64,000 nucleotides of DNA from an uncultured bacterium (GCA_963725235.1 CAVRXN010000002.1:94964-158963), one strand, 5' to 3'. Numbered from the stretch's first letter, positions 7,390 through 59,699 are shown. Numbers and translations: made by a program. The notes: generated by a model not told the origin, from the sequence alone.

Positions 7390-10055
7390 ATGCCAAACTT
7401 CCATCGTTTCACAATAAAAGCACAGGAGGCCTTGCAGAATGCGCAGGAGATCGCGGCAAAGAAGAATCACGGCGAACTGAAAGCGCTACATCTGCTCGCG
7501 GCGCTTATTGAAGACGAACAGTCGCTCGTCATTCCGGTTCTCGAGCGTTGCGGCGTCAATCTTAGAAAAGCTCGATGAGGAAATCGATGTCGAGCTCGAT
7601 CGCATCCCGCCGATAATGTCGCAACTCGAACGTCGGCCAGCTCTATCTTTCGCAGGAATTAATGAAGGTGCTCGACCAGGCGGCGAAAATCGCGGCTCAG
7701 CAAAAGGATGAGTTTGTTTCATGCGAACATTTATTGCTTGCGATCATCGATGTCCGGCGGAACCGCGAAATCGGTGCTCGAAAAGTTCGGCGTGCGACGC
7801 GAATCCGCATTCCGAGTTTTGGCGCAGCTTCGCGGCTCGACCCGCGTCATGGATGAAACGCCGGAATCGAAATTCCAGGTTCTTGAAAAATATGCGATCA
7901 ATCTGAGCGAGCGAGCAAAGAAGGGCGAACTCGATCCGGTCATCGGCCGCGAGGAAGAATTGCGCCGGCTGATGCAGGTGCTTTCACGCAGAACTAAGAA
8001 TAACCCATGCTTGATCGGCGAACCGGGCGTTGGAAAAACGGCGATCGTTGAAGGGCTTGCGCAAAGAATCGCTTCCGGCGACGTCCCGGAACTCTTGAAA
8101 GGAAAGCAGGTCTTGATGCTCGACCTCGGCTCGCTGATTGCCGGAACAAAGTTCCGCGGCGAGTTTGAAGACCGGTTGAAGGCCTTTATGCGCGAAGTAA
8201 AAAACGCCGCCGGCCAAATTATCTTATTCATTGACGAAATCCACACGATCGTCGGCGCAGGCGCTGCCGAGGGCGCTGTTGATGCGTCAAACCTATTAAA
8301 ACCCGCGCTCGCGCGCGGCGAACTGCACGCAATCGGCGCGACCACGATCCGCGAATACCAGAAATATATAGAGAAAGATGCAGCGCTCGAGCGCCGTTTC
8401 GCGCCGATTATGGTTGAAGAGCCAACAATCGAGGACTCGATCGCGATCCTGCGCGGCTTGAAAGAGAAATATGAAATCCATCATGGCATGCGCATCAGCG
8501 ATGAAGCGATCATCGAAGCGGTCAACTTGTCAGCGCGGTATATAACGGATAGATTTTTGCCGGACAAAGCCGTCGATTTGATCGATGAAGCCGCCGCAGC
8601 GCGTCGCCTCGAGTCCGAAAGCTTGCCGAAAGAGCTCGACCACATCCGCCGCGAGATCACCAAGCTTGAGATCGAAAAGCAGGCGCTTAACGAAAGAAGG
8701 TGAAAAAGGCAAAGAGCGGATCAAGGAGATCGACGTCGCCCTCGCAAAATTAAAAGAAGATAACGACGAAATCTCGGCCAAATGGCATTCGGAGAAGATA
8801 AAATTCGAGACGCTGCATCAGCTGCGGCAGAAAGTGGATAACCTGAAGCGTGAGGCAGAGATGGCGGAGCGGGAAGGTAATCTCGAACGCGTGGCGCAGA
8901 TTATCTATGGCGAACTGCCGCAGGCGGAAAAGGATTTCCAGATGTTTGAGAAGAAGAATTTTGGCGCGACCGCTACAACGCGATCGAAAAGGGCGAAAAC
9001 TGCCGGCGCGAATGTCTGCCGACGACCGTTTCCTGAAAGAAGCGGTCGACAAAGAAGATGTCGCCGCAGTCGTCGCCGTCTGGACCGGCATTCCGTTAAA
9101 GCGAATGCTCGAAACCGATACCGACAAGCTGATTCGGATCGAAGAAGTACTTCGCGGCCGCGTCATCGGCCAGGAAGAAGGCATCGGCGCGGTCGCATCG
9201 GCGCTCCGCCGCTCGCGTGCCGGCCTTTCCGATGAAAACCGCCCCATCGGCTCATTCATGTTCCTCGGACCAACCGGCGTCGGTAAAACCGAACTCGCAA
9301 AAGCGCTCGCCGAGTTTATGTTCAATGACGATAAAGCGCTCGTCCGGATCGATATGTCGGAATATATGGAGCGTCACGCCGTCAGCCGCTTGATCGGTTC
9401 GCCGCCGGGCTACGTGGGCCACGAAGAAGGCGGTCAGCTGACCGAAATTCTCCGCCACCGGCCATACAGTTTGATCCTATTCGACGAAATCGAAAAGGCA
9501 CATCCGGAAGTGTTTAACCTGCTCTTGCAGGTGCTCGACAACGGCCGCTTGACGGACAGCAAGGGGAAAACGGTCAACTTCAAGAACTCGATCATCATTA
9601 TGACGTCGAACGTCGGCAGTGAATATCTGAAGGCGATGTCACGCATCGGTTTCAGTGCGCCGAACGAAACGCCAGAAGAAGGGGATTATCGCGAGCGCGT
9701 ATTGGAAGCGCTCCGCCACAGCTTCCGCCCGGAATTCCTGAACCGCATCGATGAAGTCGTCATTTTCAACCCACTCCGCAAGCAGGACATCGAAAAAATC
9801 ATCGACATCCAACTCGACCTGATTAAGGCACGCCTCGAAGATCAGCATGGTATAAAGTTCGAAATCGACCCGGCCGCGCGCGCATATCTTGCAAAAGAAG
9901 GCTTTAGCGCAGAGTACGGCGCCCGTCCGTTGAAGCGAATGCTCCAAAAGGTTATCCTTGATAGGTTGGCGGATAAGATCATCCGCGGCGAAACCAAAGA
10001 TGGCGGCAAAGTTAAAGTCAATTTTAAGGCAAATTCACTGGTCTTTACTCCTTAG
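7390..10055 (+). CDS. clpB: ATP-dependent chaperone ClpB (Hsp100), frameshifted into at least 4 ORF pieces (7390..7578, 7508..7711, 7662..7856, 7708..8703, 8850..10055)
   Basis: Clp N domain ([19 protein letters not shown]), NBD1 ([20 protein letters not shown]), M-domain coiled coil, NBD2 ([17 protein letters not shown]...[10 protein letters not shown]). One frame break lies next to an A4 run. Confidence 0.85.
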
Positions 10056-15706: not shown

Positions 15707-16336
15707 ATGGTTAAAAAACTGAAACGTGTAGAAGTCGAAGAAAAGCTCAAATCAGCAGGGCTGGCGGTTTTTACGCCTCGCGAATTTAAGGGTATTTTTA
15801 AGGTAGCGCCCGGGGCAGCTGCGGTATTCCTGTCTCATAACGTTGGCAAAGGCGGGATATTTATAAAGATTCGCAATGGATTTTACAAAATAAAAGATGC
15901 CCATACCTCGCGCTATCTGATAGCCAATAAGCTTTACGAACCTTCGTACATTTCTCTTTCGACGGCACTATCGCATTACGGCATCATCCCGGAAGTGGTA
16001 TATGCTACGACCTCCGTTACGGCCAAGTTATCACGGGAGTTTGAAACGCCGATAGGGAATTTTATCTATCAGCGGATCAAGCAGGCGGCATTCACTGGTT
16101 ATGGCTTACGGGCCATCGATCGCGAGAACGTCCTGATCGCTGAGCCGGAAAAAGCGCTTGCAGACTATCTTTATTTCGTCGACTTAAAGAAAGTGTCTTT
16201 GAATGATCGGCTTGAACTAAAAAATATAAAGAAATCTGTTTTACTTGGGTTCGTAAAGTTATTCGAAAGGCCAAGCATGATAAAGCTTATTGATCAAATT
16301 TATGTTGAATATAAAAAACCTCGAAAAATTTACTGA
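15707..16336 (+). CDS. abiEi: Type IV toxin-antitoxin system antitoxin AbiEi
   Basis: 209 aa; wHTH N-terminus plus an AbiEi_4-like C-terminus; the downstream toxin gene overlaps it by 47 nt. Confidence 0.7.
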   Translation: MVKKLKRVEVEEKLKSAGLAVFTPREFKGIFKVAPGAAAVFLSHNVGKGGIFIKIRNGFYKIKDAHTSRYLIANKLYEPSYISLSTALSHYGIIPEVVYATTSVTAKLSREFETPIGNFIYQRIKQAAFTGYGLRAIDRENVLIAEPEKALADYLYFVDLKKVSLNDRLELKNIKKSVLLGFVKLFERPSMIKLIDQIYVEYKKPRKIY

Positions 16337-17036
16337 TCGGTCGCAGACAACCCTGCAGAATGTTGTCAGGGAATATTGCCAGCATTTGTTTTTATCATAT
16401 CTCTATAAACAGCCTGGATCAGAACGCTTGCTGTTTAAGGGCGGTACTGCGCTTAGGATTATTTTTGAAAGTCCGCGTTTTTCGGAAGACCTCGATTTTA
16501 CGGGAATAAATATTCGCACCGCAGAGATCGAAAATATTTTTGGTGATGTGCTGGCGGCCATCGAGCATACGGGTGTCCGCGTTGACCTCCAGGAGGGAAA
16601 ACCAACTACGGGTGGCTATTTAGGTATCGCGACATTTCATACATACGGGAAAGCGACTCCTATCCAGATTGAGATATCGCTTCGGAATGGTAAACGAGTT
16701 GAAGGCGTACAATCGTTGATTGAAAATGAATATATTCCGGAATATACACTTATTCATTTACCGGAAGAAGATATCGTCAAGGGGAAAATCGAGGCGCTTA
16801 TCGCCCGCCACAAGCCACGCGATTTTTACGATTATTGGTTTCTTTTGCATGGAAATTATCCTCTTGCGAAAGAAAAGAAGAATTTGGAGGCGGTATCAGC
16901 GCTGTTGCGAAGTTCCAAAGTGAATTTCCGCGCCGAGCTCCGCGAGTTCCTGCCGGCAAGCCAGGCGCGGCTTTTGGGGGATTTTAAGAAAGTGCTCGAG
17001 GCAAAAATTGCAGATTTTTTGGGGAAGCGAATCTAG
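16290..17036 (+). CDS. abiEii: Nucleotidyltransferase toxin AbiEii/AbiGii (DUF1814)
   Basis: LFKGGTALRIIFESPRFSEDLDF (GSx10DxD NTase motif), 248 aa. Confidence 0.8.
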   Translation: MIKFMLNIKNLEKFTDRSQTTLQNVVREYCQHLFLSYLYKQPGSERLLFKGGTALRIIFESPRFSEDLDFTGINIRTAEIENIFGDVLAAIEHTGVRVDLQEGKPTTGGYLGIATFHTYGKATPIQIEISLRNGKRVEGVQSLIENEYIPEYTLIHLPEEDIVKGKIEALIARHKPRDFYDYWFLLHGNYPLAKEKKNLEAVSALLRSSKVNFRAELREFLPASQARLLGDFKKVLEAKIADFLGKRI

Positions 17037-33621: not shown

Positions 33622-33866
33622 GGATTCTCAACCGACTATAATTAGGATTAATGAAAGCTTAAAACGGTTTCCTTTCGTGAGGAAGGGAAAGTCCGTTTTT
33701 TGCGTTTTGCGCTGTATTAGATAACGTTAGGAGTGTTTTGGGAAGGGCTGATTTCGGCGGCCCGCATGAGGAACCAGAACATGTGCGACCAACAACTTAA
33801 TATGTTTTTAATAAATCGTCGGGTTTTGCTCGGCAAATATAAATTAAATTTTAATTAAAACGTCGC

Positions 33867-40712
<6,846 letters not shown>

Positions 40713-52398: not shown

Positions 52399-53709
52399 TT
52401 ATATTTTTCTTTCTTTAATCTCCCCCGAAATTTTTTTCACAAAATCCTCAACCGACATCGCGCCTTCGTCCGTCGCTTTCTCGCCATCACGCCCACGCGT
52501 GCGAACGGCGACGGTACCGGCGGCAACTTCTTTTTCGCCGACGACCAAAACATATGGAGTTTTTAATAATTCGGCTTCACGGATACGCTTGCCGAGCGAT
52601 TCGGTTGCGGCGCTCAACTCGGCGCGGATGCGTGGTACGCCCCCGACAACCGCAGCGGCAAAATGTTCATCCGCTCGCCGCAATTTTTCAACAACGCCGC
52701 GTGCGTACTCGTCAAACTTTTCGCTGACCGGCAAAACGGCAACCTGCACCGGCGCAAGCCAAACGGGGAATGCGCCCGCGTATCGCTCGATCAAAAATGC
52801 CATGACGCGCTCGAGCGCGCCGATCGAGGAGCGATGGACGGCGAATGCGCGTTTCGCCGAGCCGTCAGCGGCAACATATGTCAGGTCGAAACGGTCGGGC
52901 ATGCAGAAATCATATTGGACCGTGAACGCGGTGTCTTCTTTGCCGTTCACGTTCTTCATTTGAATATCGATTTTCGGTCCATAGAATGCAGCTTCGTTGG
53001 CAGCTTCGACGAACGGCTTGCCGCGCTTCTGCAGTAATTTACGCAATAAATCCTCACCCTTCTCCCAGGCGGCATCATTCTTATAATATTTGTCCGAAGT
53101 GTCGGAGCGGTCGCCGAGCGACAACCGATAAGAATAATCGACGCCCTGGACGAGTCCGAGAACACCCGTAACATATTCGATCAAGTCCAGTGCTTCACCA
53201 ACTTCTTCGACTGCTTGCTCTTCGGTTGCACAGATAATATGTGCATCCGCGAGACAGAACGACCGAACGCGCTGCAAACCCATCAATTCGCCGGACTGTT
53301 CGTAGCGATATAATTTAGCAACTTCGGCAATGCGCATCGGCAATTCGCGATAGCTGACCGGTCGGCGCAAATATAATTCGAAGTGGTGTGGGCACGTCAT
53401 CGGCCGGAGCATATACTGCTCTTTATCGATCTCGATCGGCGCATACATCGAGTCGGCGTAATGCGGATAATGGCCGGACTTGCGGTAAAGGTCGAGCTTC
53501 GCGATGTCGGGCGTGTAGACGTGAAGATAGCCGCGCTTGATTTCTTCATCGACGACAAACCGCTCGAGCTCGCGCCGGATCGTTGCGCCTTTCGGTGTGA
53601 AAAGTGGGAGCCCTTTACCGACCGCGTCGCTGAACGCAAACAGATCGAGCTGTGGACCCAGCACTTTATGGTCGCGCTCTTCCGGAGCAATGTTAGGGAT
53701 TTCAGGCAT
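52399..53709 (-). CDS. thrS: Threonyl-tRNA synthetase, N-terminally truncated type (catalytic + anticodon-binding domains only)
   Basis: RDHKVLGPQLDLFAF...LPLFTPKGA...YRKSGHYPHYADSMY...YMLRPMTCPHHFELY...YRYEQSGELMGLQRVRSFCLADAHIIC; 436 aa. Confidence 0.85.
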   Translation of the reverse strand: MPEIPNIAPEERDHKVLGPQLDLFAFSDAVGKGLPLFTPKGATIRRELERFVVDEEIKRGYLHVYTPDIAKLDLYRKSGHYPHYADSMYAPIEIDKEQYMLRPMTCPHHFELYLRRPVSYRELPMRIAEVAKLYRYEQSGELMGLQRVRSFCLADAHIICATEEQAVEEVGEALDLIEYVTGVLGLVQGVDYSYRLSLGDRSDTSDKYYKNDAAWEKGEDLLRKLLQKRGKPFVEAANEAAFYGPKIDIQMKNVNGKEDTAFTVQYDFCMPDRFDLTYVAADGSAKRAFAVHRSSIGALERVMAFLIERYAGAFPVWLAPVQVAVLPVSEKFDEYARGVVEKLRRADEHFAAAVVGGVPRIRAELSAATESLGKRIREAELLKTPYVLVVGEKEVAAGTVAVRTRGRDGEKATDEGAMSVEDFVKKISGEIKERKI

Positions 53710-53841: not shown

Positions 53842-54567
53842 ATGGAAAACGTCAAACCTTCGGCCGTCGAAGCACCGGCAGTAATCATCAGGCCGACCGG
53901 CTTGGATCGCGATTATTTCTCCGCCGATGACTGGCAGCAGTCACGCGGCGTTACGTTGACCGACGAGCAACGTGATCTGATGCCGAAAGTGCCATGGGAT
54001 AATGATTTACTCATGTCTCCGTGCCCGTTTGATAAGAAACAGAAGAAACGGATCGGGGAAACGCACTACGGCTTCATTGGATTCGCGAGCGTTGCAGGCG
54101 AAGGCGTCCCGAGCGAGATGGTGAACTTGCTCAAACTACAGCGACTGTATCCTGCGGATCAACAGCCAAAATTCGTTTCGTACGCTCCGGATTCCTGGTA
54201 TTCGCACCAGGATTTCGCAAACCTCATCGCGCTGGAGTTTTGCTACTATCTTCTCCTGCGCGAGATCGTTCCGCGTTCGAATGGCCTTGTGTTCACGGAG
54301 CAGCAAGCAATGCTGCCACCGGGATATAAAGTGCCTTCGGCAATCGCAGAAACCGCAAAGGACTTGTTCATTTATGACAAGCTCAAGGTTTACGTGAATC
54401 CAAGGCATTACGCGCGAACTGCCGATCTCGATTCGCATGGCTCTCGCGTGTACGTCGGCCATTGCGACGCGAACGGTGTCTTCATCAACCGCTGGTACGA
54501 CGACAGGCCGCGCGACGGCATCGGTGTCGGCGCTGCCCGGGAGTTCGAAACGAACCTTGCGGCTTGA
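53842..54567 (+). CDS. DGR target (variable) protein; the C-terminal ~38 codons are encoded by the variable repeat
   Basis: 241 aa; the C-terminus ...DSHGSRVYVGHCDANGVFINRWYDDRPRDGIGVGAAREFETNLAA overlaps VR. Confidence 0.75.
   Translation: MENVKPSAVEAPAVIIRPTGLDRDYFSADDWQQSRGVTLTDEQRDLMPKVPWDNDLLMSPCPFDKKQKKRIGETHYGFIGFASVAGEGVPSEMVNLLKLQRLYPADQQPKFVSYAPDSWYSHQDFANLIALEFCYYLLLREIVPRSNGLVFTEQQAMLPPGYKVPSAIAETAKDLFIYDKLKVYVNPRHYARTADLDSHGSRVYVGHCDANGVFINRWYDDRPRDGIGVGAAREFETNLAA
54425..54540 (+). repeat. DGR variable repeat (VR), 116 bp
   Basis: 101/116 identical to TR; all 15 differences are at positions where TR has A (VR has C/T/G). Confidence 0.85.
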
Positions 54568-54869: not shown

Positions 54870-54985
54870 ATCTCGATTCGAATGGCAATCGCGTGAACGT
54901 CGGCAATTGCGACGCGAACGGTGTCAACATCAACAACTGGAACGACGACAAGCCGAACGACAACATCGGTGTCGGCGCTGCCCGG
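54870..54985 (+). repeat. DGR template repeat (TR), 116 bp, Asn-codon (AAC/AAT) rich
   Basis: Translates in the VR frame to ...NGNRVNVGNCDANGVNINNWNDDKPNDNIGVGAARQS*; lies in the intergenic region between the target gene and avd/RT. Confidence 0.85.
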
Positions 54986-54997
54986 CAGTCATGATCT

Positions 54998-55345
54998 CTA
55001 CTCCCGAATGGATTTAATCCAACCTCCGAGCATTCGACCGATCTCGTCGGTCATTTCTTCAAGTTTCAGGTATTTCTTCATATCGATAACTTTCGCATCT
55101 TTTGCGAGGCGGAAGAATACTCGGAGGAGATTAAGTTTTGTGCTGACCTGTTTCAAGACGGGAATTTTCTCGGATTTATAAAGTTCGCTCGCAGCGAGGA
55201 TCCCTTCTATAACATCGAGGATAGTTTTCTCGGCGCGTTCCCAAATCGTATGCCGATCTTGTTTATTAATTCCGTTCCGGTAGCCATGGAAAAGCTGATA
55301 GAGATCGTACGATTTTTTAAAAATTGGAATATCGAAATTATCCAT
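54998..55345 (-). CDS. avd: DGR accessory variability determinant (Avd; four-helix-bundle protein)
   Basis: MDNFDIPIFKKSYDLYQLFHGYRNGINKQDRHTIWERAEKTILDVIEGILAA...; 115 aa, basic, on the opposite strand between TR and RT. Confidence 0.75.
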   Translation of the reverse strand: MDNFDIPIFKKSYDLYQLFHGYRNGINKQDRHTIWERAEKTILDVIEGILAASELYKSEKIPVLKQVSTKLNLLRVFFRLAKDAKVIDMKKYLKLEEMTDEIGRMLGGWIKSIRE

Positions 55346-55352
55346 TTTATTT

Positions 55353-56404
55353 ATGAAGGTATATCGCGATGTTTTTGATAGGATTATTAGTGTGGAAAGT
55401 ATTTTTGCCGCTTGGGATCAGTTTAAGCAGGATAAAAAGAATAGATCGGATGTCGCGAAGTTTGAGCAAAAGCTCGAAGAGAATTTGTTCCAATTGTGCC
55501 GCGATCTCAAGAATAAAAACTATCGTCATGGACCATATTACGGCTTTTATATCCATGACCCAAAGCAACGTCACATTCATAAGGCCACCGTCCGAGATCG
55601 TATTTTGCATCATGCCATTTTTTCGATTTTGAGCCCGATGTTTGAAGAGATGTTTATCTCGACGTCGTTTTCCTGCCGAGTTGGATTTGGAACGCACAGA
55701 GGCGTCGATATGCTCGCGCAGATGATTCGCAGAGTTTCGAAAAATGGCAGCCAGCAATGTTACGTTTTGAAATGCGATATTAAAAAATTCTTCGATAGTG
55801 TTGACCACGAGATACTCCTTAGCATTTTGAATCGGAGGGTCAAAGATGAAGACGCGGTGTGGCTCTTGCGCGAAATCGTAAAAAGTTACGTAATTAAACG
55901 AGAGAGAGAGAGAGAGTTCAAAGCCAAATTCAAAAAACTGGCATTCCAATCGGCAATTTGACTTCCCAGCTGTTCGCGAATGTCTACATGAATGAGTTCG
56001 ATCAATTCATTAAGCATGGTTTGCATATAAAACATTATGCCCGTTATACCGATGATTTTGCAATAGTGGCTTCGAGCCACTCTGAGTTAAAAAATCTTAT
56101 CGAACCGATAGAGCAATTTCTCGAAAGTCATCTGAAATTACAACTTCATCCGAAGAAAATTTCGGTCCGAACTATAAATCATGGCATTGATTTTCTTGGC
56201 TATGTAATATTTCCAGGCCATCGTTTGATTCGCACAAAAACCCGCAGACGAATTTTTAAAAAGTTCAAATTGAAAGTTGAGGCATATCGTTTGGGCCACA
56301 TTTCCGAAGATTTTTTGATGGCATCGCTCCGATCATATCTTGGCGTTCTGTCTCATGCAGATACTTATCATCTTGCGGAAGAGTTGAAAAATGCGCTATT
56401 ATAG
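55353..56404 (+). CDS. DGR reverse transcriptase, frame broken inside a (GA)8 tract at 55900-55916
   Basis: RDRILHHAIFSILSPMFEEMFISTSFSCRVGFGTH (compare Bordetella Brt RDRLVQHALCNI...YACRPDKGTH); GIPIGNLTSQLFANVYMNEFD (DGR hallmark); YARYTDDFAIV (YxDD). Confidence 0.85.
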
Positions 56405-56408
56405 AGCC

Positions 56409-57725
56409 ATGCTCGATATTAAGTTCATCCGGGAAAACGCGGCTGCGGTGCGCGATGCGGCGACGAAGAAGAATCTGGATCCGAAGGTGATCGATGAGCT
56501 TTTGGCTGTCGATGAGACGCGGCGCGGATTGATGACCCAGCTCGAGATGGTGCGCGCAGCGCAGAAGAAGGCGACGAACCGCGAGGAGGGTACGCGGCTG
56601 AAAGAGGAGTATAAGAAGATCGAGGCAGAAGGTGACTTCGCCGGTATCGAGAAAAAATTCACCGAGCTGATGGCTCGCGTGCCAAATATTATTTCACCCG
56701 ACACGCCGGTCGGCAAAAGCGAGAATGAGAATAAGGAAGTGTTCAAATGGATCCCCGGCGGCGGCAGCGAACCGAAACAATTCGACTTCACCCCGAAGAC
56801 GCACATCGAGCTCGGCACCTCGCTCGACATCCTCGACTTCGATCGTGGAGCGAAAGTCGCCGGCTTCCGCGGATACTATGTAAAGAACGAAGGAGTTCTG
56901 CTCGTCATGGGCATGATGATGTACGCGGTGCAGAAAATGGTTGAAAAAGGTTTCATGCCGATGATCCCGCCGACACTCGTGAAACAATTTCCGTTGTTCG
57001 GCAGTGGATATTTCAAAGGAACTGAATACGACGCAGCGGTTGATGAGATATATAAAGTGGCGACTCCATCAACCGTGGCAGGTGATAGCGAGGACAAATT
57101 TTTAGTCGGTACATCCGAGCCCTCGCTCCTCGCATACTACGCGGACGAAATTTTGCGCGGCGAGCAGTTGCCGATGCGGCTCGCGGGCTACAGCCAGTGC
57201 TATCGGAGCGAGATCGGCAGTTATGGCCGCGACGTCAAAGGAATGTATCGCGTGCACGAGTTCCAAAAAGTGGAACAGGTCGTGCTCGCGCCGGCTGACA
57301 TCGAAGCGGCGAACAAGTTGCAGGATGAGATGGTCGCGATCTCGGGCGAGTTGCATCAGGATCTCGGCTTGCCATATCGCCGCCTCGCGATCTGCACAGG
57401 CGACTTAAGCGCCGGAAAATATCGTCAGTTCGACACCGAAGCGTGGCTGCCGGGCATGAAGCGCTGGGCCGAGACCGGTTCGGCGAGCAACTTCCTCGAC
57501 TGGCAATCGCGCCGGTTGAACGTTAAGTACACCGTGCCCGCGGGCGAGCCCGATGCCGACGGCGCCAAGCCGGGCGAGCGAAAGTTCGTATATATGTTAA
57601 ACAACACCGCGCTGCCCTCGCCGCGCATCTTCATTGCGATCTTGGAAAATTATCAAACCGCAGACGGCCGCGTTGAAGTGCCGGAAGTGCTACAGAGGTT
57701 CGTTGGGAAGAAGATGATTGGGTAA
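56409..57725 (+). CDS. serS: Seryl-tRNA synthetase
   Basis: MLDIKFIRENAAAVRDAATKKNLD (coiled-coil N-arm); class II motifs (...YSQCYRSEIGSYGRDVKGMYRVHEFQKVEQV...); C-terminus ...PEVLQRFVGKKMIG. Confidence 0.9.
   Translation: MLDIKFIRENAAAVRDAATKKNLDPKVIDELLAVDETRRGLMTQLEMVRAAQKKATNREEGTRLKEEYKKIEAEGDFAGIEKKFTELMARVPNIISPDTPVGKSENENKEVFKWIPGGGSEPKQFDFTPKTHIELGTSLDILDFDRGAKVAGFRGYYVKNEGVLLVMGMMMYAVQKMVEKGFMPMIPPTLVKQFPLFGSGYFKGTEYDAAVDEIYKVATPSTVAGDSEDKFLVGTSEPSLLAYYADEILRGEQLPMRLAGYSQCYRSEIGSYGRDVKGMYRVHEFQKVEQVVLAPADIEAANKLQDEMVAISGELHQDLGLPYRRLAICTGDLSAGKYRQFDTEAWLPGMKRWAETGSASNFLDWQSRRLNVKYTVPAGEPDADGAKPGERKFVYMLNNTALPSPRIFIAILENYQTADGRVEVPEVLQRFVGKKMIG
57677..57725 (+). repeat. Direct repeat copy 1 (serS 3' end), 49 bp, 42/49 identical to 59701..59749
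   Basis: GTGCCGGAAGTGCTACAGAGGTTCGTTGGGAAGAAGATGATTGGGTAAA. Confidence 0.7.
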
Positions 57726-57727
57726 AA

Positions 57728-58567
57728 ATGAACGAGACCGAAGTATACAATAAACTGCAAGATTGGGCTGAAAAGAACGAAAATATTCGAGCTATGGTTT
57801 TGACCAGTTCGAGGACTGCGAAGGATCCGAATGTTGATATTTTTTCCGATTATGACATCGAGTTTTACGTTAAAGACATGCGACAATTTCTTACGGACGA
57901 TTGGTTGTCATTCTTTGGTGATATTCTGATTAGATGGCCGTTAGAACCAATCATCGAGAACAACAACAATGTCACGCGTTTGGTGCTTTTTAATAACGAA
58001 GTAAGAATTGATTTTCAGATTACAGATAATGTAAAGATTGATGGAGCAAGATATGATAATGGATTCAAGGTTCTATTGGATAAGGATGGTATCGCGAAAG
58101 ACATAAAACTAGCAACTTATAGTCAATTCGTGGTTAAAAAACCAACGGAGAAAGAATTTATTGAACTCATAAACGACTTTTTCTGGGACGGAACTTATGT
58201 TGCAAAAAATCTCTGGAGAGATGAACTTTACTACGCCAAGTATATGATGGATAGTGTTATACGTTTTGAATATCTGCAAAAAGTAATTGAATGGTATATA
58301 GGAGTCGACCATGATTGGTCAGTCAATACAAATAAGTATGGGAGATTTTTCAAGCGATATCTCGATGAGGCACTATGGAAAGAGTTAGAGTCGACTTTCA
58401 GTGGAGCAAGCATAGAAGAAAACTGGAATGCCTTTTTTAATATGGTTACTCTTTTTAGCAAGTTAGCAAAAGAGATAGCTGCTAAATTAAATTATAATTA
58501 TCCATTAGACATTGAAACTAAAGCAGTTAAATACTATAAGAAAGTTAGAGGATTGGAAGGGAAATAA
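57728..58567 (+). CDS. aadK: Aminoglycoside 6-nucleotidyltransferase ANT(6) / AadK-AadE family (streptomycin adenylyltransferase), low-GC
   Basis: ENIRAMVLTSSRT...DIFSDYDIEFYV, FKVLLDKDGI, KPTEKEFIELINDFFWDGTYVAKNLWRDELYYAKYMMDSVIRFEYLQKVIEWYIG, KYGRFFKRYLDEALWKELESTFS; collinear with B. subtilis AadK. ATG is 2 nt after the serS stop. Confidence 0.8.
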   Translation: MNETEVYNKLQDWAEKNENIRAMVLTSSRTAKDPNVDIFSDYDIEFYVKDMRQFLTDDWLSFFGDILIRWPLEPIIENNNNVTRLVLFNNEVRIDFQITDNVKIDGARYDNGFKVLLDKDGIAKDIKLATYSQFVVKKPTEKEFIELINDFFWDGTYVAKNLWRDELYYAKYMMDSVIRFEYLQKVIEWYIGVDHDWSVNTNKYGRFFKRYLDEALWKELESTFSGASIEENWNAFFNMVTLFSKLAKEIAAKLNYNYPLDIETKAVKYYKKVRGLEGK

Positions 58568-58715
58568 ACGATATTCAGTTGGGTTGTGTCTTTAGCAGTT
58601 TATAGGCCAATATCGGCCATTTTTCTTATCATAAACTCCAAAGATTAAAAAATTATTAAAAAAGATTTGCATTGTATTTTGAGGGCAGTATGATTGATAG
58701 AAACATAATAAAAAC

Positions 58716-59699
58716 ATGACAAAAAAGAAAAATATAAAGCAGGAAATTGTTATTTATCAGGGCAAAAATGGTGCGATTGAGTTGCGTGGTGATTTTTCGC
58801 GGGAAACGCTTTGGGCAACCTTGCAGCAAATTGCCGATCTTTTTGACACGGATAAATCGGGCATTTCCCGCCATATCAAAAGCATATACGAAAGCGGAGA
58901 ATTGCCTCGGGAGGGAACTGTTGCAAAAAATGCAACAGTTCGAAAGGAAAGCACAAGGGACGTATTTCGTCAAGTCGAATACTATAATTTAGACCTCATT
59001 TTATCGGTCGGATATCGTATTAACTCGCAAAAGGCGACAATTTTCCGCCGCTGGGCAACAGAAGTCCTTCGCCGCCATATCACCGAGGGTTACACAATAA
59101 ATAAAAAGCTCATCGTCAAGAATTACGACGCATTTCTGAAGGCAGTGGAAGAAGTGAAGTCATTACTTCCCGAAGGTAACCTGATCGCTGCTGGCGATGC
59201 GTTGGAATTGGTGAAAATGTTCGCGTCGACATGGTTCGCGCTCAATGCGTACGACAAAGAGGAGCTGCCAATGTCGGGAGCGACGCACAAACAAGTTGCG
59301 TTCACCGGAGAAGAGCTGGCGAAAGCAATCGGCAAATTGCGCGAAGAGCTGGCCTCGAAAGACGAAATCGGGCTTTTCGGTATTGAACGAAACGAAAAAA
59401 GCATTGCGGGGATCGTCGGCAATATTTTCCAATCGTTTGGCGGAAAGGATCTCTATCCGACCGTCGAAGAAAAAGCGGCACATCTTTTATATTTCATCGT
59501 AAAGAATCATCCATTCGCCGATGGCAACAAGCGGTCGGGTGCGTTTGCGTTTGTCTGGTTTTTGAACAGTGCGAAGCTGCTCAACCCGGCGCGCTTTTCG
59601 CCGGAAGCTCTCACGGCGCTCACGTTATTGGTCGCCGAAAGCAAATCGACCGACAAAGATAGGATCGTTGGATTGGTATTGCTGTTGCTGAAAAAATAA
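58716..59699 (+). CDS. RhuM-family virulence protein with a C-terminal Fic/Doc domain
   Basis: N-terminal KilA-N/RhuM-like (IVIYQGKNGAIELRGDFSRETLWATLQQIADLF...YYNLDLILSVGYRINSQKATIFRRWATEVL); C-terminal HPFADGNKRSGAFAFVWFL (Fic/Doc HPFx[DE]GN[GK]R). Confidence 0.75.
   Translation: MTKKKNIKQEIVIYQGKNGAIELRGDFSRETLWATLQQIADLFDTDKSGISRHIKSIYESGELPREGTVAKNATVRKESTRDVFRQVEYYNLDLILSVGYRINSQKATIFRRWATEVLRRHITEGYTINKKLIVKNYDAFLKAVEEVKSLLPEGNLIAAGDALELVKMFASTWFALNAYDKEELPMSGATHKQVAFTGEELAKAIGKLREELASKDEIGLFGIERNEKSIAGIVGNIFQSFGGKDLYPTVEEKAAHLLYFIVKNHPFADGNKRSGAFAFVWFLNSAKLLNPARFSPEALTALTLLVAESKSTDKDRIVGLVLLLLKK

What the first reader, a model, noticed from the sequence alone, without database searches (positions are those of the whole stretch)
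55895..55945. The DGR reverse-transcriptase frame is broken exactly inside a (GA)8 dinucleotide microsatellite
The RT ORF 55353..55961 ends just after CGAGAGAGAGAGAGAGAG (55899-55916). The continuation carrying GIPIGNLTSQ is in the +2 frame, which opens at a TAA directly 5' of the tract. Loss of one GA unit (GA8 to GA7) would fuse the two halves into one intact RT (...VIKRERER-VQSQIQKTGIPIGNLTSQ...). This is the geometry of a slipped-strand phase-variation switch that would turn mutagenic retrohoming ON or OFF. Most other frame breaks I inspected in this window sit in homopolymers, which are typical sequencing errors, so a dinucleotide tract stands out. It could still be a read error.
Basis: seen in the sequence. 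Interest (0 to 1): 0.6.

Follow-up and report, generated by a model that had tools for sequence, protein, structure and literature searches.

The report
Microsatellite on/off switch in DGR reverse transcriptase
The gene for the enzyme that drives targeted hypermutation in this bacterium is split at a short GA repeat, and more than a hundred related genes from other environmental samples carry a length-variable GA repeat at the same spot and are mostly out of frame there, which points to a natural, reversible off switch rather than a sequencing error.

Summary
A (GA)8G tract lies at 55900-55916. The DGR reverse transcriptase (RT) is split there into 55353-55961 and a +2-frame continuation ending at 56404, and removing one GA gives a 349-aa RT. 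From this window alone the break can only be placed in 55898-55958, which also contains an A6 run.

A frame-blind metagenome scan returned 120 related RT loci with (GA)6-25 at the same position. Of 106 loci that could be scored, 18 are in frame, 46 are offset +1 and 42 are offset +2. The out-of-frame genes are otherwise intact. In 59 of 66, a change of one repeat unit restores an open frame of at least 300 codons, and adenine-specific TR/VR pairs lie beside them. Contigs with identical flanks differ by one unit, including one on/off pair. Other relatives carry a G10 or G8 run and are split at it.

The best reading is slipped-strand phase variation of the DGR mutator in Patescibacteria, with off as the usual state. 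Slippage during transcription or translation is not excluded. The window's own repeat count is uncertain, because rpoB, rpoC and clpB are also frame-broken in this assembly. I found no earlier report of this feature.

The parts
53842..54567 (+). DGR target gene (241 aa, no Pfam match) with the variable repeat at its C-terminus
   Evidence: ORF. No Pfam family was found. It contains the VR.
54425..54541 (+). Variable repeat (VR)
   Evidence: Direct repeat with the TR, offset 445 nt, 87% identity. All mismatches read within the repeat lie at TR adenines; the script scores 16 mismatches, 94% at A.
54870..54986 (+). Template repeat (TR), adenine-rich with AAC codons
54998..55345 (-). Accessory variability determinant (bAvd-like, 115 aa), divergent from the RT with a 7-nt gap
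   Evidence: Pfam PF22296 bAvd, E=1.1e-16. The same avd(-)/RT(+) arrangement is seen in L001, L204 and L205.
55353..55961 (+). RT N-terminal half (frame 0, 202 aa). It reads through the tract and stops at TGA 55959-55961.
   Evidence: It is identical to public protein P0121, 202 aa, on a 510,887-nt contig.
55895..55897 (+). TAA that closes the +2 frame just 5' of the tract, giving the lower bound of the interval where the frame change must lie
55900..55916 (+). (GA)8G microsatellite, the proposed switch. It encodes Arg-Glu repeats in every frame and has no stop codon in any sense frame.
   Evidence: Homologous tracts at the same site appear. In the predicted structure it falls in a loop with pLDDT below 50, residues 183-191, and in a 14-aa insertion relative to bRT 8ub7.
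55932..55937 (+). A6 run inside the permissible interval. It is the rival site for a 1-nt indel or read error.
55898..56404 (+). RT C-terminal half in frame +2 (motif 4 GIPIGNLTSQ, YTDDF catalytic motif, thumb). Its stop at 56402-56404 overlaps the serS start at 56391.

Best explanation
The (GA)8 tract is one member of a conserved class of hypermutable simple-sequence repeats. They sit in the part of Patescibacteria DGR reverse-transcriptase genes that encodes a flexible loop just before RT motif 4.

Proposed mechanism:
1. Slipped-strand mispairing during DNA replication adds or removes GA units (inferred; the length polymorphism itself is shown).
2. Only one length class in three keeps the N-terminal half (fingers plus the first catalytic Asp) in frame with the C-terminal half (motif 4, YxDD, thumb). 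The other two classes give a truncated protein of about 190-230 aa and no polymerase (shown from the sequence).
3. RT production, and with it adenine-directed mutagenic retrohoming of the TR into the VR, is therefore switched on and off stochastically, heritably and reversibly within a lineage (inferred).
4. Off is the commoner consensus state in nature. This would let a population freeze a useful VR variant and avoid the cost of the mutator, while a minority of cells re-arm it (inferred).

The allele recorded in this window is off. Losing one unit or gaining two would restore the RT.
For: - Homologous RT genes encode (RE)n of varying length at this site, and the underlying DNA is (GA)15 and (GA)17.
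All carry a pure tract of 13-51 nt lying 5-41 nt upstream of the PIGNLT motif.
- Frame state by tblastn: 18 in frame, 46 offset +1 and 42 offset +2 out of 106. The in-frame count differs from 1/3 at binomial p=2.7e-4. The proportion is the same (20% in frame) for tracts of 10 units or fewer, which short-read assemblers resolve.
- The out-of-frame loci are not decaying. N-halves are open for at least 480 nt in 98% and 86% of loci (offsets +1 and +2), and C-halves for at least 420 nt in 95% and 82%, much as in in-frame loci. A one-unit change gives a single open frame of at least 300 codons in 59 of 66 loci.
- Length polymorphism on identical flanks: L005 and L037 have (AG)9 and are off, while L027 has (AG)10 and is on, with 100% identical flanks over 300+300 nt. 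L071 and L083 have 7 and 8 units, and two further pairs also differ.
- L027 shares its TR with L005 and L037, but its VR differs at about 17 positions that are adenines in the TR.
- Adenine-specific TR/VR pairs lie next to 36 of 56 off loci and 9 of 14 on loci, 64% in both groups. The window's own VR and TR show the same signature.
- Site specificity: 650 kb of these loci hold 123 tracts at the RT site and only 2 other dinucleotide repeats of 6 or more units.
- Breadth: 112 tract-bearing C-halves have a median pairwise identity of 49% and form 66 clusters at 70%. Tractless relatives are interspersed among them at up to 79% identity.
- Convergence: L204 has G10 at the same linker, is split there, and is repaired by G11 or G8. 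L205 and L206 have G8 after YTDDF, are split there, and are repaired by G9 or G6.
- 86 of the 120 best database matches to the N-half are fragments of 180-314 aa that end in or just after (RE)n.
- The tract lies in a permissive loop: a 14-aa insertion relative to bRT, with pLDDT below 50.
Against: - No read-level or clonal data were available, so switching within one population and its reversibility are inferred, not shown.
- Differences between contigs from different samples could in principle be fixed strain differences.
- In-frame alleles are rarer (17%) than the 33% expected from neutral drift in length. This needs selection for off, or it could mean that out-of-frame alleles are still expressed by slippage during transcription or translation.
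- A subset of loci has a stable hairpin directly 3' of the tract, which is the geometry of a frameshift stimulator.
- In this window the break cannot be separated from the A6 run, and the assembly has many frame breaks in rpoB, rpoC and clpB. Its (GA)8 count may therefore be an error.
Confidence: 0.6

Rival explanations
1. Recoding rather than switching. Out-of-frame alleles would still yield some full-length RT, because RNA polymerase adds or drops GA units on the tract, or because ribosomes slip by 2 nt on it. GAG and AGA codons re-pair perfectly after a +/-2 shift. The genomic tract length would then set the RT dose (high when in frame, low otherwise) instead of giving a true off state. This could coexist with DNA-level length variation.
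For: - In-frame alleles are depleted below 1/3, as expected if in-frame over-production is costly and out-of-frame alleles are still functional.
- All tracts (13-51 nt) are longer than a 9-bp RNA:DNA hybrid.
- 43 of 124 loci have a perfect hairpin with a stem of 5 or more bp between tract and motif, often GC-rich with TTC(G) loops and starting 0-4 nt after the tract.
- In E. coli reporters, out-of-frame (AG)n constructs from a Mycoplasma bovis mod gene are leaky. Suppression of the -1 frame rises with repeat length (bioRxiv 10.64898/2026.04.01.715767).
Against: - No fixed frame offset is conserved. Offsets +1, +2 and 0 all occur, and near-identical strains change class. Known programmed frameshifts do not behave this way.
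- The hairpin is absent from most loci and from the window.
- The tract-to-motif segment does not fold significantly better than the equivalent segment of tractless homologues (p=0.15).
- Poly-G tracts at the same or another site are classic DNA-slippage switches.
- No RNA or protein data were available.
Confidence: 0.2
2. Sequencing or consensus error in this assembly only. The organism's real RT would be intact, either (GA)7 or A7 in the downstream run, and the break would be an artefact.
For: - The window has many frame breaks in essential genes. rpoB is in at least 3 ORFs, rpoC in at least 5, and clpB in at least 2.
- An A6 homopolymer lies in the permissible interval.
- Dinucleotide repeats are error-prone in long-read consensus (general knowledge).
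Against: - Frame breaks in the window are clustered in rpoB/rpoC and clpB. The genes around the DGR (thrS, target, avd, serS) read as intact ORFs.
- The single break in the 1,050-nt RT gene falls in the 61-nt interval that holds the tract.
- 83% of independent, mostly short-read contigs with a tract at this site are also out of frame.
- A paralogous RT fragment from the same 510,887-nt contig (P0143, 64% identical) is also a 202-aa fragment with the same out-of-frame tail.
Confidence: 0.12
3. Dead retroelement. The RT would be a decaying pseudogene, and the repeat only marks where it happened to break.
For: The gene is split, and no expression data exist.
Against: - Both halves are free of further stops here and in about 90% of out-of-frame relatives, across lineages only about 49% identical.
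- The tract is kept pure and at the same site in at least 66 lineages.
- The VR differs from the TR only at adenines.
- A random 150-codon stretch would stay open with a probability of about 6e-4 (my calculation).
Confidence: 0.04
4. Split enzyme. The two halves would be translated separately and assemble into an active RT.
For: Two long ORFs exist, and the purine-rich tract weakly resembles a Shine-Dalgarno sequence.
Against: - 45 of 89 out-of-frame loci have no ATG, GTG or TTG in the downstream frame between the nearest upstream stop and motif 4.
- In the window the first candidate start (TTG 55958) lies inside motif 4.
- In-frame fused versions exist in the same lineages.
Confidence: 0.02

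Closest known systems
Intragenic simple-sequence-repeat phase variation (contingency loci). Examples are (AG)n in Mycoplasma bovis Type III mod genes, tetranucleotide repeats in Haemophilus influenzae mod and LOS genes, and poly-G tracts in Campylobacter and Neisseria.
   Same: - A pure repeat inside an ORF whose unit number toggles the reading frame.
- Tract length differs between near-identical strains.
- The gene is otherwise intact.
- The repeat is over-represented at that site relative to the genome.
- Poly-G and dinucleotide versions both occur (the PMC11868660 abstract and bioRxiv 10.64898/2026.04.01.715767 for the known systems).
   Different: - The switched gene is neither a surface-structure gene nor a restriction-modification gene. 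It is the polymerase of a targeted hypermutation system, so one diversity generator is placed under another.
- The hosts are uncultivated Patescibacteria, not host-adapted pathogens.
- Off is the majority state (83%).
- Switching rates have not been measured.
Bordetella phage BPP-1 diversity-generating retroelement (bRT-Avd, PDB 8ub7 series)
   Same: - RT of the same family (E=4.5e-45), with the GIPIGxLTSQLFAN motif 4.
- An Avd accessory protein.
- A TR/VR pair with adenine-specific differences and the VR at the C-terminus of the target.
   Different: - bRT lacks the 14-residue insertion that holds the tract.
- avd is on the opposite strand here.
- I found no report of repeat-mediated control for any DGR.
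Programmed ribosomal frameshifting and transcriptional slippage (dnaX, IS-family transposases, reviewed in PMC5009743)
   Same: Two overlapping ORFs are joined at a repetitive slippery run. A 3' stem-loop is present in a subset of loci.
   Different: - Those systems keep one fixed offset and a defined slippery motif across homologues.
- Here all three frame classes occur and change between near-identical strains.
- The slippery element is a long dinucleotide tract of variable length.
Switchable general mutators, for example the SpyCIM1 island that reversibly interrupts mutL in Streptococcus pyogenes (from my own knowledge, not checked here)
   Same: Reversible genetic control of a mutation-generating function.
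   Different: That system acts on genome-wide mismatch repair through excision of an element. This one acts on a site-directed retroelement through repeat slippage.

Membership tests
Diversity-generating retroelement (DGR) | Reverse transcriptase of the DGR clade with motif 4 [I/L]GxxxSQ | tested here: met
   GIPIGNLTSQLFAN is present. Pfam RVT_1 matches at E=3.7e-27. The best solved relative is the Bordetella DGR RT 8ub7, E=4.5e-45, with the motif aligned.
Diversity-generating retroelement (DGR) | Template repeat and variable repeat that differ at TR adenines | tested here: met
   VR 54425-54541 against TR 54870-54986. All mismatches read within the repeat are at TR adenines; the script scores 16 mismatches, 94% at A.
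Diversity-generating retroelement (DGR) | Accessory protein (Avd) adjacent to the RT | tested here: met
   54998-55345 (-) matches PF22296 bAvd at E=1.1e-16.
Diversity-generating retroelement (DGR) | Ongoing mutagenic retrohoming (cDNA synthesis, VR replacement) | not testable with these tools
   Only past activity can be inferred, from VR/TR differences.
SSR-mediated phase-variable (contingency) locus | Uninterrupted repeat within the ORF, long enough to slip, and over-represented relative to the genome background | tested here: met
   (GA)8 in the window and 6-25 units in relatives. No occurrence in 100 shuffles. 123 tracts at the RT site against 2 other dinucleotide repeats in 650 kb.
SSR-mediated phase-variable (contingency) locus | Unit-number changes toggle the frame of an otherwise intact gene | tested here: met
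   For the window. A one-unit change restores an open frame of at least 300 codons in 59 of 66 out-of-frame relatives, and the halves are intact.
SSR-mediated phase-variable (contingency) locus | Tract-length polymorphism among closely related genomes | tested here: met
   Four clusters with 99-100% identical flanks differ in unit number, including an on/off pair.
SSR-mediated phase-variable (contingency) locus | High-frequency, reversible switching within a clonal population | not testable with these tools
   This needs reads, amplicons or cultures. Enrichment of tracts at contig ends is weak (6 observed against 2.4 expected) and has other explanations.
Programmed frameshift / transcriptional slippage site | One conserved frame offset across homologues | tested here: not met
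   Offsets 0, +1 and +2 occur 18, 46 and 42 times. Near-identical strains differ in offset.
Programmed frameshift / transcriptional slippage site | Conserved stimulatory RNA structure at a fixed distance 3' of the slippery site | tested here: inconclusive
   A hairpin with a stem of 5 or more bp occurs in 43 of 124 loci but is absent from the window. Folding is not significantly stronger than in tractless homologues. The apparent signal partly came from the palindromic motif-4 codons.
Programmed frameshift / transcriptional slippage site | Full-length product made from the out-of-frame template | not testable with these tools
   No transcript or protein data were available.
Sequencing/assembly artefact | The break is not reproduced in independent assemblies of related genes | tested here: not met
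   88 of 106 independent contigs are broken at the homologous tract. For this window's own unit count the question stays open.

The most novel reading that the evidence does not exclude
The tract, together with the stable 3' hairpin seen in a subset of loci, may act as a three-state dosage control rather than a binary switch. DNA slippage would choose among three frame classes. Within the two out-of-frame classes, gain or loss of dinucleotide units by RNA polymerase, or +/-2 ribosomal slippage on GAG/AGA codons, would yield a small, class-specific amount of full-length RT. The rate of targeted hypermutation would then be set heritably at high, low or very low. This would add dinucleotide-repeat recoding on top of repeat phase variation, in control of a retroelement mutator.
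Probability: 0.2. Interest if true: 0.85.

Novelty: new variant of a known kind. Interest (0 to 1): 0.75.

Why it matters
How DGRs are regulated is largely unknown. It is also unclear how a cell keeps a useful variant once targeted hypermutation has produced one.

A conserved hypermutable repeat inside the RT gene would provide a heritable, reversible off switch. That puts one bet-hedging device in control of another. The finding that most natural alleles are off suggests the mutator is normally held in reserve.

There are practical consequences:
- DGR surveys that require an intact RT ORF would miss most members of this Patescibacteria class.
- The many 'RNA-directed DNA polymerase' fragments of about 200 aa in databases may be switched-off genes rather than junk.
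- The hypothesis can be tested directly with existing metagenomic reads, by comparing the tract-length allele mix with VR diversity, and with simple reporter constructs.

Tried and rejected
- **Repair site by alignment.** I aligned both possible repairs (GA7 and A7) with 42 homologues to decide which is right. The linker is too variable to choose between them.
- **Viral contigs.** The tract-plus-motif pattern gave no hits in viral contigs.
- **Genome-collection scan.** It keeps only the 80 best matches, which are biased towards intact genes. It could not serve as a control for the frameshift rate. Five of the 80 have an in-frame tract of 6 or more units at the site, and two more have short runs nearby.
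- **Exhaustive representative search with the N-half.** Clustering at 50% identity and motif divergence made the on/off ratio unreadable.
- **Word-index search with the N-half.** It returned only short proteins, so it gives counts of fragments but no ratio to full-length genes.
- **Source record.** DNA for the window's own record and for the paralogue P0143 was not on record. Cluster look-up gave no accession.
- **Hairpin as a general feature.** The 36 nt after the tract fold better than control windows. This largely disappeared when the palindromic motif-4 codons were excluded and tractless homologues were used as the control. The hairpin is therefore kept only as a feature of a subset of loci.
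- **Separate initiation of the C-half.** Rejected for lack of start codons.
- **Contig-end enrichment of the tract.** Weak, at 6 observed against 2.4 expected.
- **Rfam.** Only one tRNA was found in the window.
- **Literature.** Six full-text searches and three DGR surveys or reviews gave no mention of repeats or frameshifts in DGR RT genes. The main paper on DGRs in these lineages (Paul et al. 2017, PMC5436926) is not held, so I could not check it.

Full report
**What is in the window.** The region 53.8-56.4 kb is a complete diversity-generating retroelement (DGR), lying between thrS (52399-53709, minus strand) and serS (56391-57725).
- The target gene is 53842-54567. Its C-terminal variable repeat (VR, 54425-54541) matches a template repeat (TR, 54870-54986) 445 nt downstream.
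- All VR/TR mismatches read within the repeat lie at TR adenines. The script scores 16 mismatches, 94% at A.
- A bAvd-like accessory gene (54998-55345, minus strand; PF22296) is followed 7 nt later by the reverse transcriptase (RT).
- The RT is split. Frame 0 runs from 55353 to a TGA at 55959-55961. The remainder, starting with motif 4 (GIPIGNLTSQLFAN), is in frame +2, which opens after TAA 55895-55897 and ends at 56404.
- Between the two stops lies GAGAGAGAGAGAGAGAG at 55900-55916. Tandem Repeats Finder reports period 2, 8.5 copies and 100% matches. None of 100 shuffles of the window produced it.
- Removing one GA gives a 349-aa protein. It matches RVT_1, aligns over its full length with about 350-aa RTs from Patescibacteria at 58-67% identity, and matches the solved Bordetella DGR RT 8ub7 at E=4.5e-45.

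From this window alone the two sites cannot be told apart.

**The lead from homologues.** In the alignment, 16 of the 120 best full-length homologues carry Arg-Glu repeats of different lengths, from RERE to RERERERERE, at exactly this linker position. The DNA of two of them shows (GA)15 and (GA)17. I then scanned metagenome contigs with a pattern that ignores reading frame: (GA)6, a gap of 12-42 nt, then the degenerate codons of PIGNLT. Every locus has a pure tract of 13-51 nt lying 5-41 nt upstream of the motif.

**Frame state across the family.**
- The frame of the N-terminal half was taken from tblastn and compared with the frame of the motif. Of 106 scorable loci, 18 are in frame, 46 have the downstream half at +1 and 42 at +2.
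- The in-frame share of 17% is below the 1/3 expected if length drifted freely (binomial p=2.7e-4). After collapsing sequences that are 90% identical, the counts are 17, 37 and 37.
- Tracts of 10 units or fewer, which short-read assemblers resolve without difficulty, give the same picture: 12 of 60 in frame.
- The out-of-frame genes are not decaying. Their N-halves are open for at least 480 nt in 98% and 86% of cases, and their C-halves for at least 420 nt in 95% and 82%. In-frame loci show 94% and 88%.
- Changing the tract by a single unit gives one open frame of at least 300 codons in 59 of 66 out-of-frame loci. Among in-frame loci, 15 of 16 have such a frame as they stand.
- Adenine-specific TR/VR pairs lie next to 64% of both out-of-frame and in-frame loci of 2.5 kb or more.

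**Evidence that the tract itself mutates quickly.** Among contigs whose 300-nt flanks on both sides are 99-100% identical, four groups differ in unit number.
- L005 and L037 have (AG)9, while L027 has (AG)10.
- L071 has 7 units and L083 has 8.
- L081 has 9 units and L120 has 8.
- L041 and L044 also differ.

By direct translation, L027 is a single open RT, while L005 and L037 are split. L005 and L037 have identical VRs. L027 has the same TR, but its VR differs at about 17 positions that are adenines in the TR. This is a single anecdote, although it fits the model.

The tract is also highly site-specific. The 650 kb of loci contain 123 tracts at the RT site and only two other dinucleotide repeats of 6 or more units.

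**Breadth and convergence.**
- The tract-bearing RTs are diverse. Their C-halves have a median pairwise identity of 49% and form 66 clusters at 70%. Tractless relatives are interspersed among them at up to 79% identity. The tract has therefore been kept for a long time or gained repeatedly.
- A search with the N-half alone returned only short proteins. Of the best 120, 86 end in or just after (RE)n, often with the recognisable out-of-frame translation of motif 4.
- One of these hits is the window's own fragment (P0121, 100% identical). Another (P0143, 64% identical) comes from the same 510,887-nt contig but outside the window. It is also a 202-aa fragment with the same out-of-frame tail.
- Some fragments lacked RE repeats but carried GGG. 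In the DNA, L204 (Kaiserbacteria) has G10 at the same linker, is split there, and is repaired by G11 or G8. L205 and L206 have G8 just after the YTDDF catalytic motif, are split there, and are repaired by G9 or G6.
- Different repeat types that converge on breaking the same gene argue that hypermutability itself is the selected property.

**Why this site tolerates a repeat.** The tract falls in a 14-residue insertion relative to the Bordetella RT. In the predicted structure (mean pLDDT 84.9) it is a loop with pLDDT below 50, residues 183-191, between a helix and motif 4. GA repeats encode Arg-Glu in every frame and never create a stop codon.

**Mechanism.** The best-supported reading is classical slipped-strand phase variation. 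Replication slippage changes the unit number, one length class in three makes RT, and mutagenic retrohoming is switched on or off heritably and reversibly.
- Shown here: the repeat, its conservation at the site, length polymorphism on identical backgrounds, frame toggling of otherwise intact genes, and the DGR context.
- Inferred: that switching happens at high frequency within a population, that off alleles make no active RT, and that the excess of off alleles reflects selection against a constitutively active mutator.

**Rivals.**
- **Recoding.** Unit slippage by RNA polymerase, or +/-2 ribosomal slippage on GAG/AGA codons, could give low-level RT from out-of-frame alleles. This would also explain the shortage of in-frame alleles. 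A stable hairpin, often GC-rich with a TTC(G) loop, follows the tract directly in 43 of 124 loci. (AG)n constructs from a Mycoplasma mod gene are leaky in E. coli. Against this, no frame offset is conserved, most loci and the window lack the hairpin, and the hairpin signal is not significant against tractless homologues. I give recoding 0.2. It is compatible with DNA-level switching.
- **Consensus error in this window.** This cannot be dismissed. rpoB, rpoC and clpB are cut into many ORFs here, so the assembly has local indel problems. However, those breaks are clustered, the DGR neighbourhood is otherwise clean, and the family-wide pattern makes an out-of-frame allele the expected state. I give it 0.12, and it applies to the unit count only.
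- **Pseudogene decay and a two-polypeptide RT.** Both are unlikely.

**Comparison with what is known.** The element is a DGR on every feature I could test. The switch behaves like intragenic repeat phase variation in Mycoplasma, Haemophilus, Campylobacter and Neisseria. It meets the sequence-level criteria for that class, but the defining population-level criterion could not be tested. It fails the main criterion for a programmed frameshift, which is a conserved offset. Six full-text searches and three DGR surveys or reviews gave no mention of repeats or frameshifts in DGR RT genes. The key paper on DGRs in these lineages was not available, so novelty is stated with that limit.

**Verdict.** This is a real and non-random feature. 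It is probably a phase-variation switch on a targeted mutator, is widespread in Patescibacteria, and appears not to have been described. It is a new variant of a known kind. Interest is 0.75.

Noticed in passing
window 33848-40700 and 7666-10055: Essential genes are cut into many overlapping ORFs. rpoB is in at least 3 pieces (33959-34747, 34816-35433, 35874-36929). rpoC is in at least 5 (37804-38160, 38048-38488, 38724-39374, 39458-40144 and others). clpB is in at least 2 (7708-8703, 8850-10055). Most of the candidate break intervals contain no long homopolymer. The breaks are clustered, while neighbouring genes (infB, ftsW, serS) are intact. This looks like local assembly or consensus trouble, but the cause is unexplained.
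   Followed up: partly
same public contig as the window (510,887 nt), outside the window; protein P0143: A second RT N-terminal fragment, 64% identical to the window's, is also 202 aa. It ends ...VKSYVIKQRRERESSKSNPKMAFLSVI, which is the same out-of-frame reading of motif 4. The genome therefore seems to have two DGR RTs, both split at the same linker. The DNA could not be retrieved.
   Followed up: partly
L204 4553-4562; L205 4697-4704; L206 (same G8): Relatives use homopolymeric G tracts instead of GA. L204 has G10 at the same pre-motif-4 linker (Kaiserbacteria JACROD010000020). L205 and L206 have G8 just after the YTDDF catalytic motif (Parcubacteria VMEU01000008 and VMGR01000017). In each case the RT is split at the tract and is repaired by +1 or -2 G.
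   Followed up: yes
L012, L017, L038, L045, L053, L062, L082, L086, L090, L095, L102, L103, L121 and others, directly 3' of the tract: In about a third of loci, GC-rich perfect hairpins start 0-4 nt after the GA tract. Twelve have TTC(G) loops. On the opposite strand these read GCGAAGC-like, which is a very stable DNA mini-hairpin. The stems differ in sequence between lineages. The hairpins could stimulate polymerase or ribosome pausing. They are absent from the window and are not significantly enriched over tractless homologues.
   Followed up: partly
L021, tract at 258-274 of the oriented locus, followed by G11: One locus has a (GA)8 tract immediately followed by a G11 homopolymer, which is two different hypermutable repeats in tandem in the same linker.
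   Followed up: no
L061 586-652 and 705-772: Two copies of the tract-plus-motif-4 segment lie about 120 nt apart in one short contig. This may be a local duplication or an assembly artefact at the repeat.
   Followed up: no
L081 versus L120: These near-identical contigs differ by one AG unit. They also differ by a 2-nt TC duplication 30 nt upstream (TTTTTCTAATTC against TTTTTCTCTAATTC), so both end up in the same frame class.
   Followed up: partly
window 57728-59699 (GC 41% against about 52% for the window): Directly after serS lie a streptomycin/aminoglycoside adenylyltransferase-family gene (PF04439, E=8e-78) and a RhuM/Fic-domain gene, in a low-GC stretch. This may be a horizontally acquired islet next to the DGR.
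   Followed up: no
window 55345-55353; also L001, L204, L205: avd and the RT are divergently oriented with only 3-7 nt between their start codons. Each gene's promoter must therefore lie inside the other's coding sequence. This arrangement is conserved in the clade.
   Followed up: no
L088 4159-4218: An (AT)30 dinucleotide tract, the only long non-GA dinucleotide repeat in 650 kb of related loci.
   Followed up: no
window 16290-17036: An AbiEii-family nucleotidyltransferase toxin gene (PF08843), preceded by an overlapping ORF (15707-16336) that may be its antitoxin. The pair is not a frameshifted single gene.
   Followed up: no
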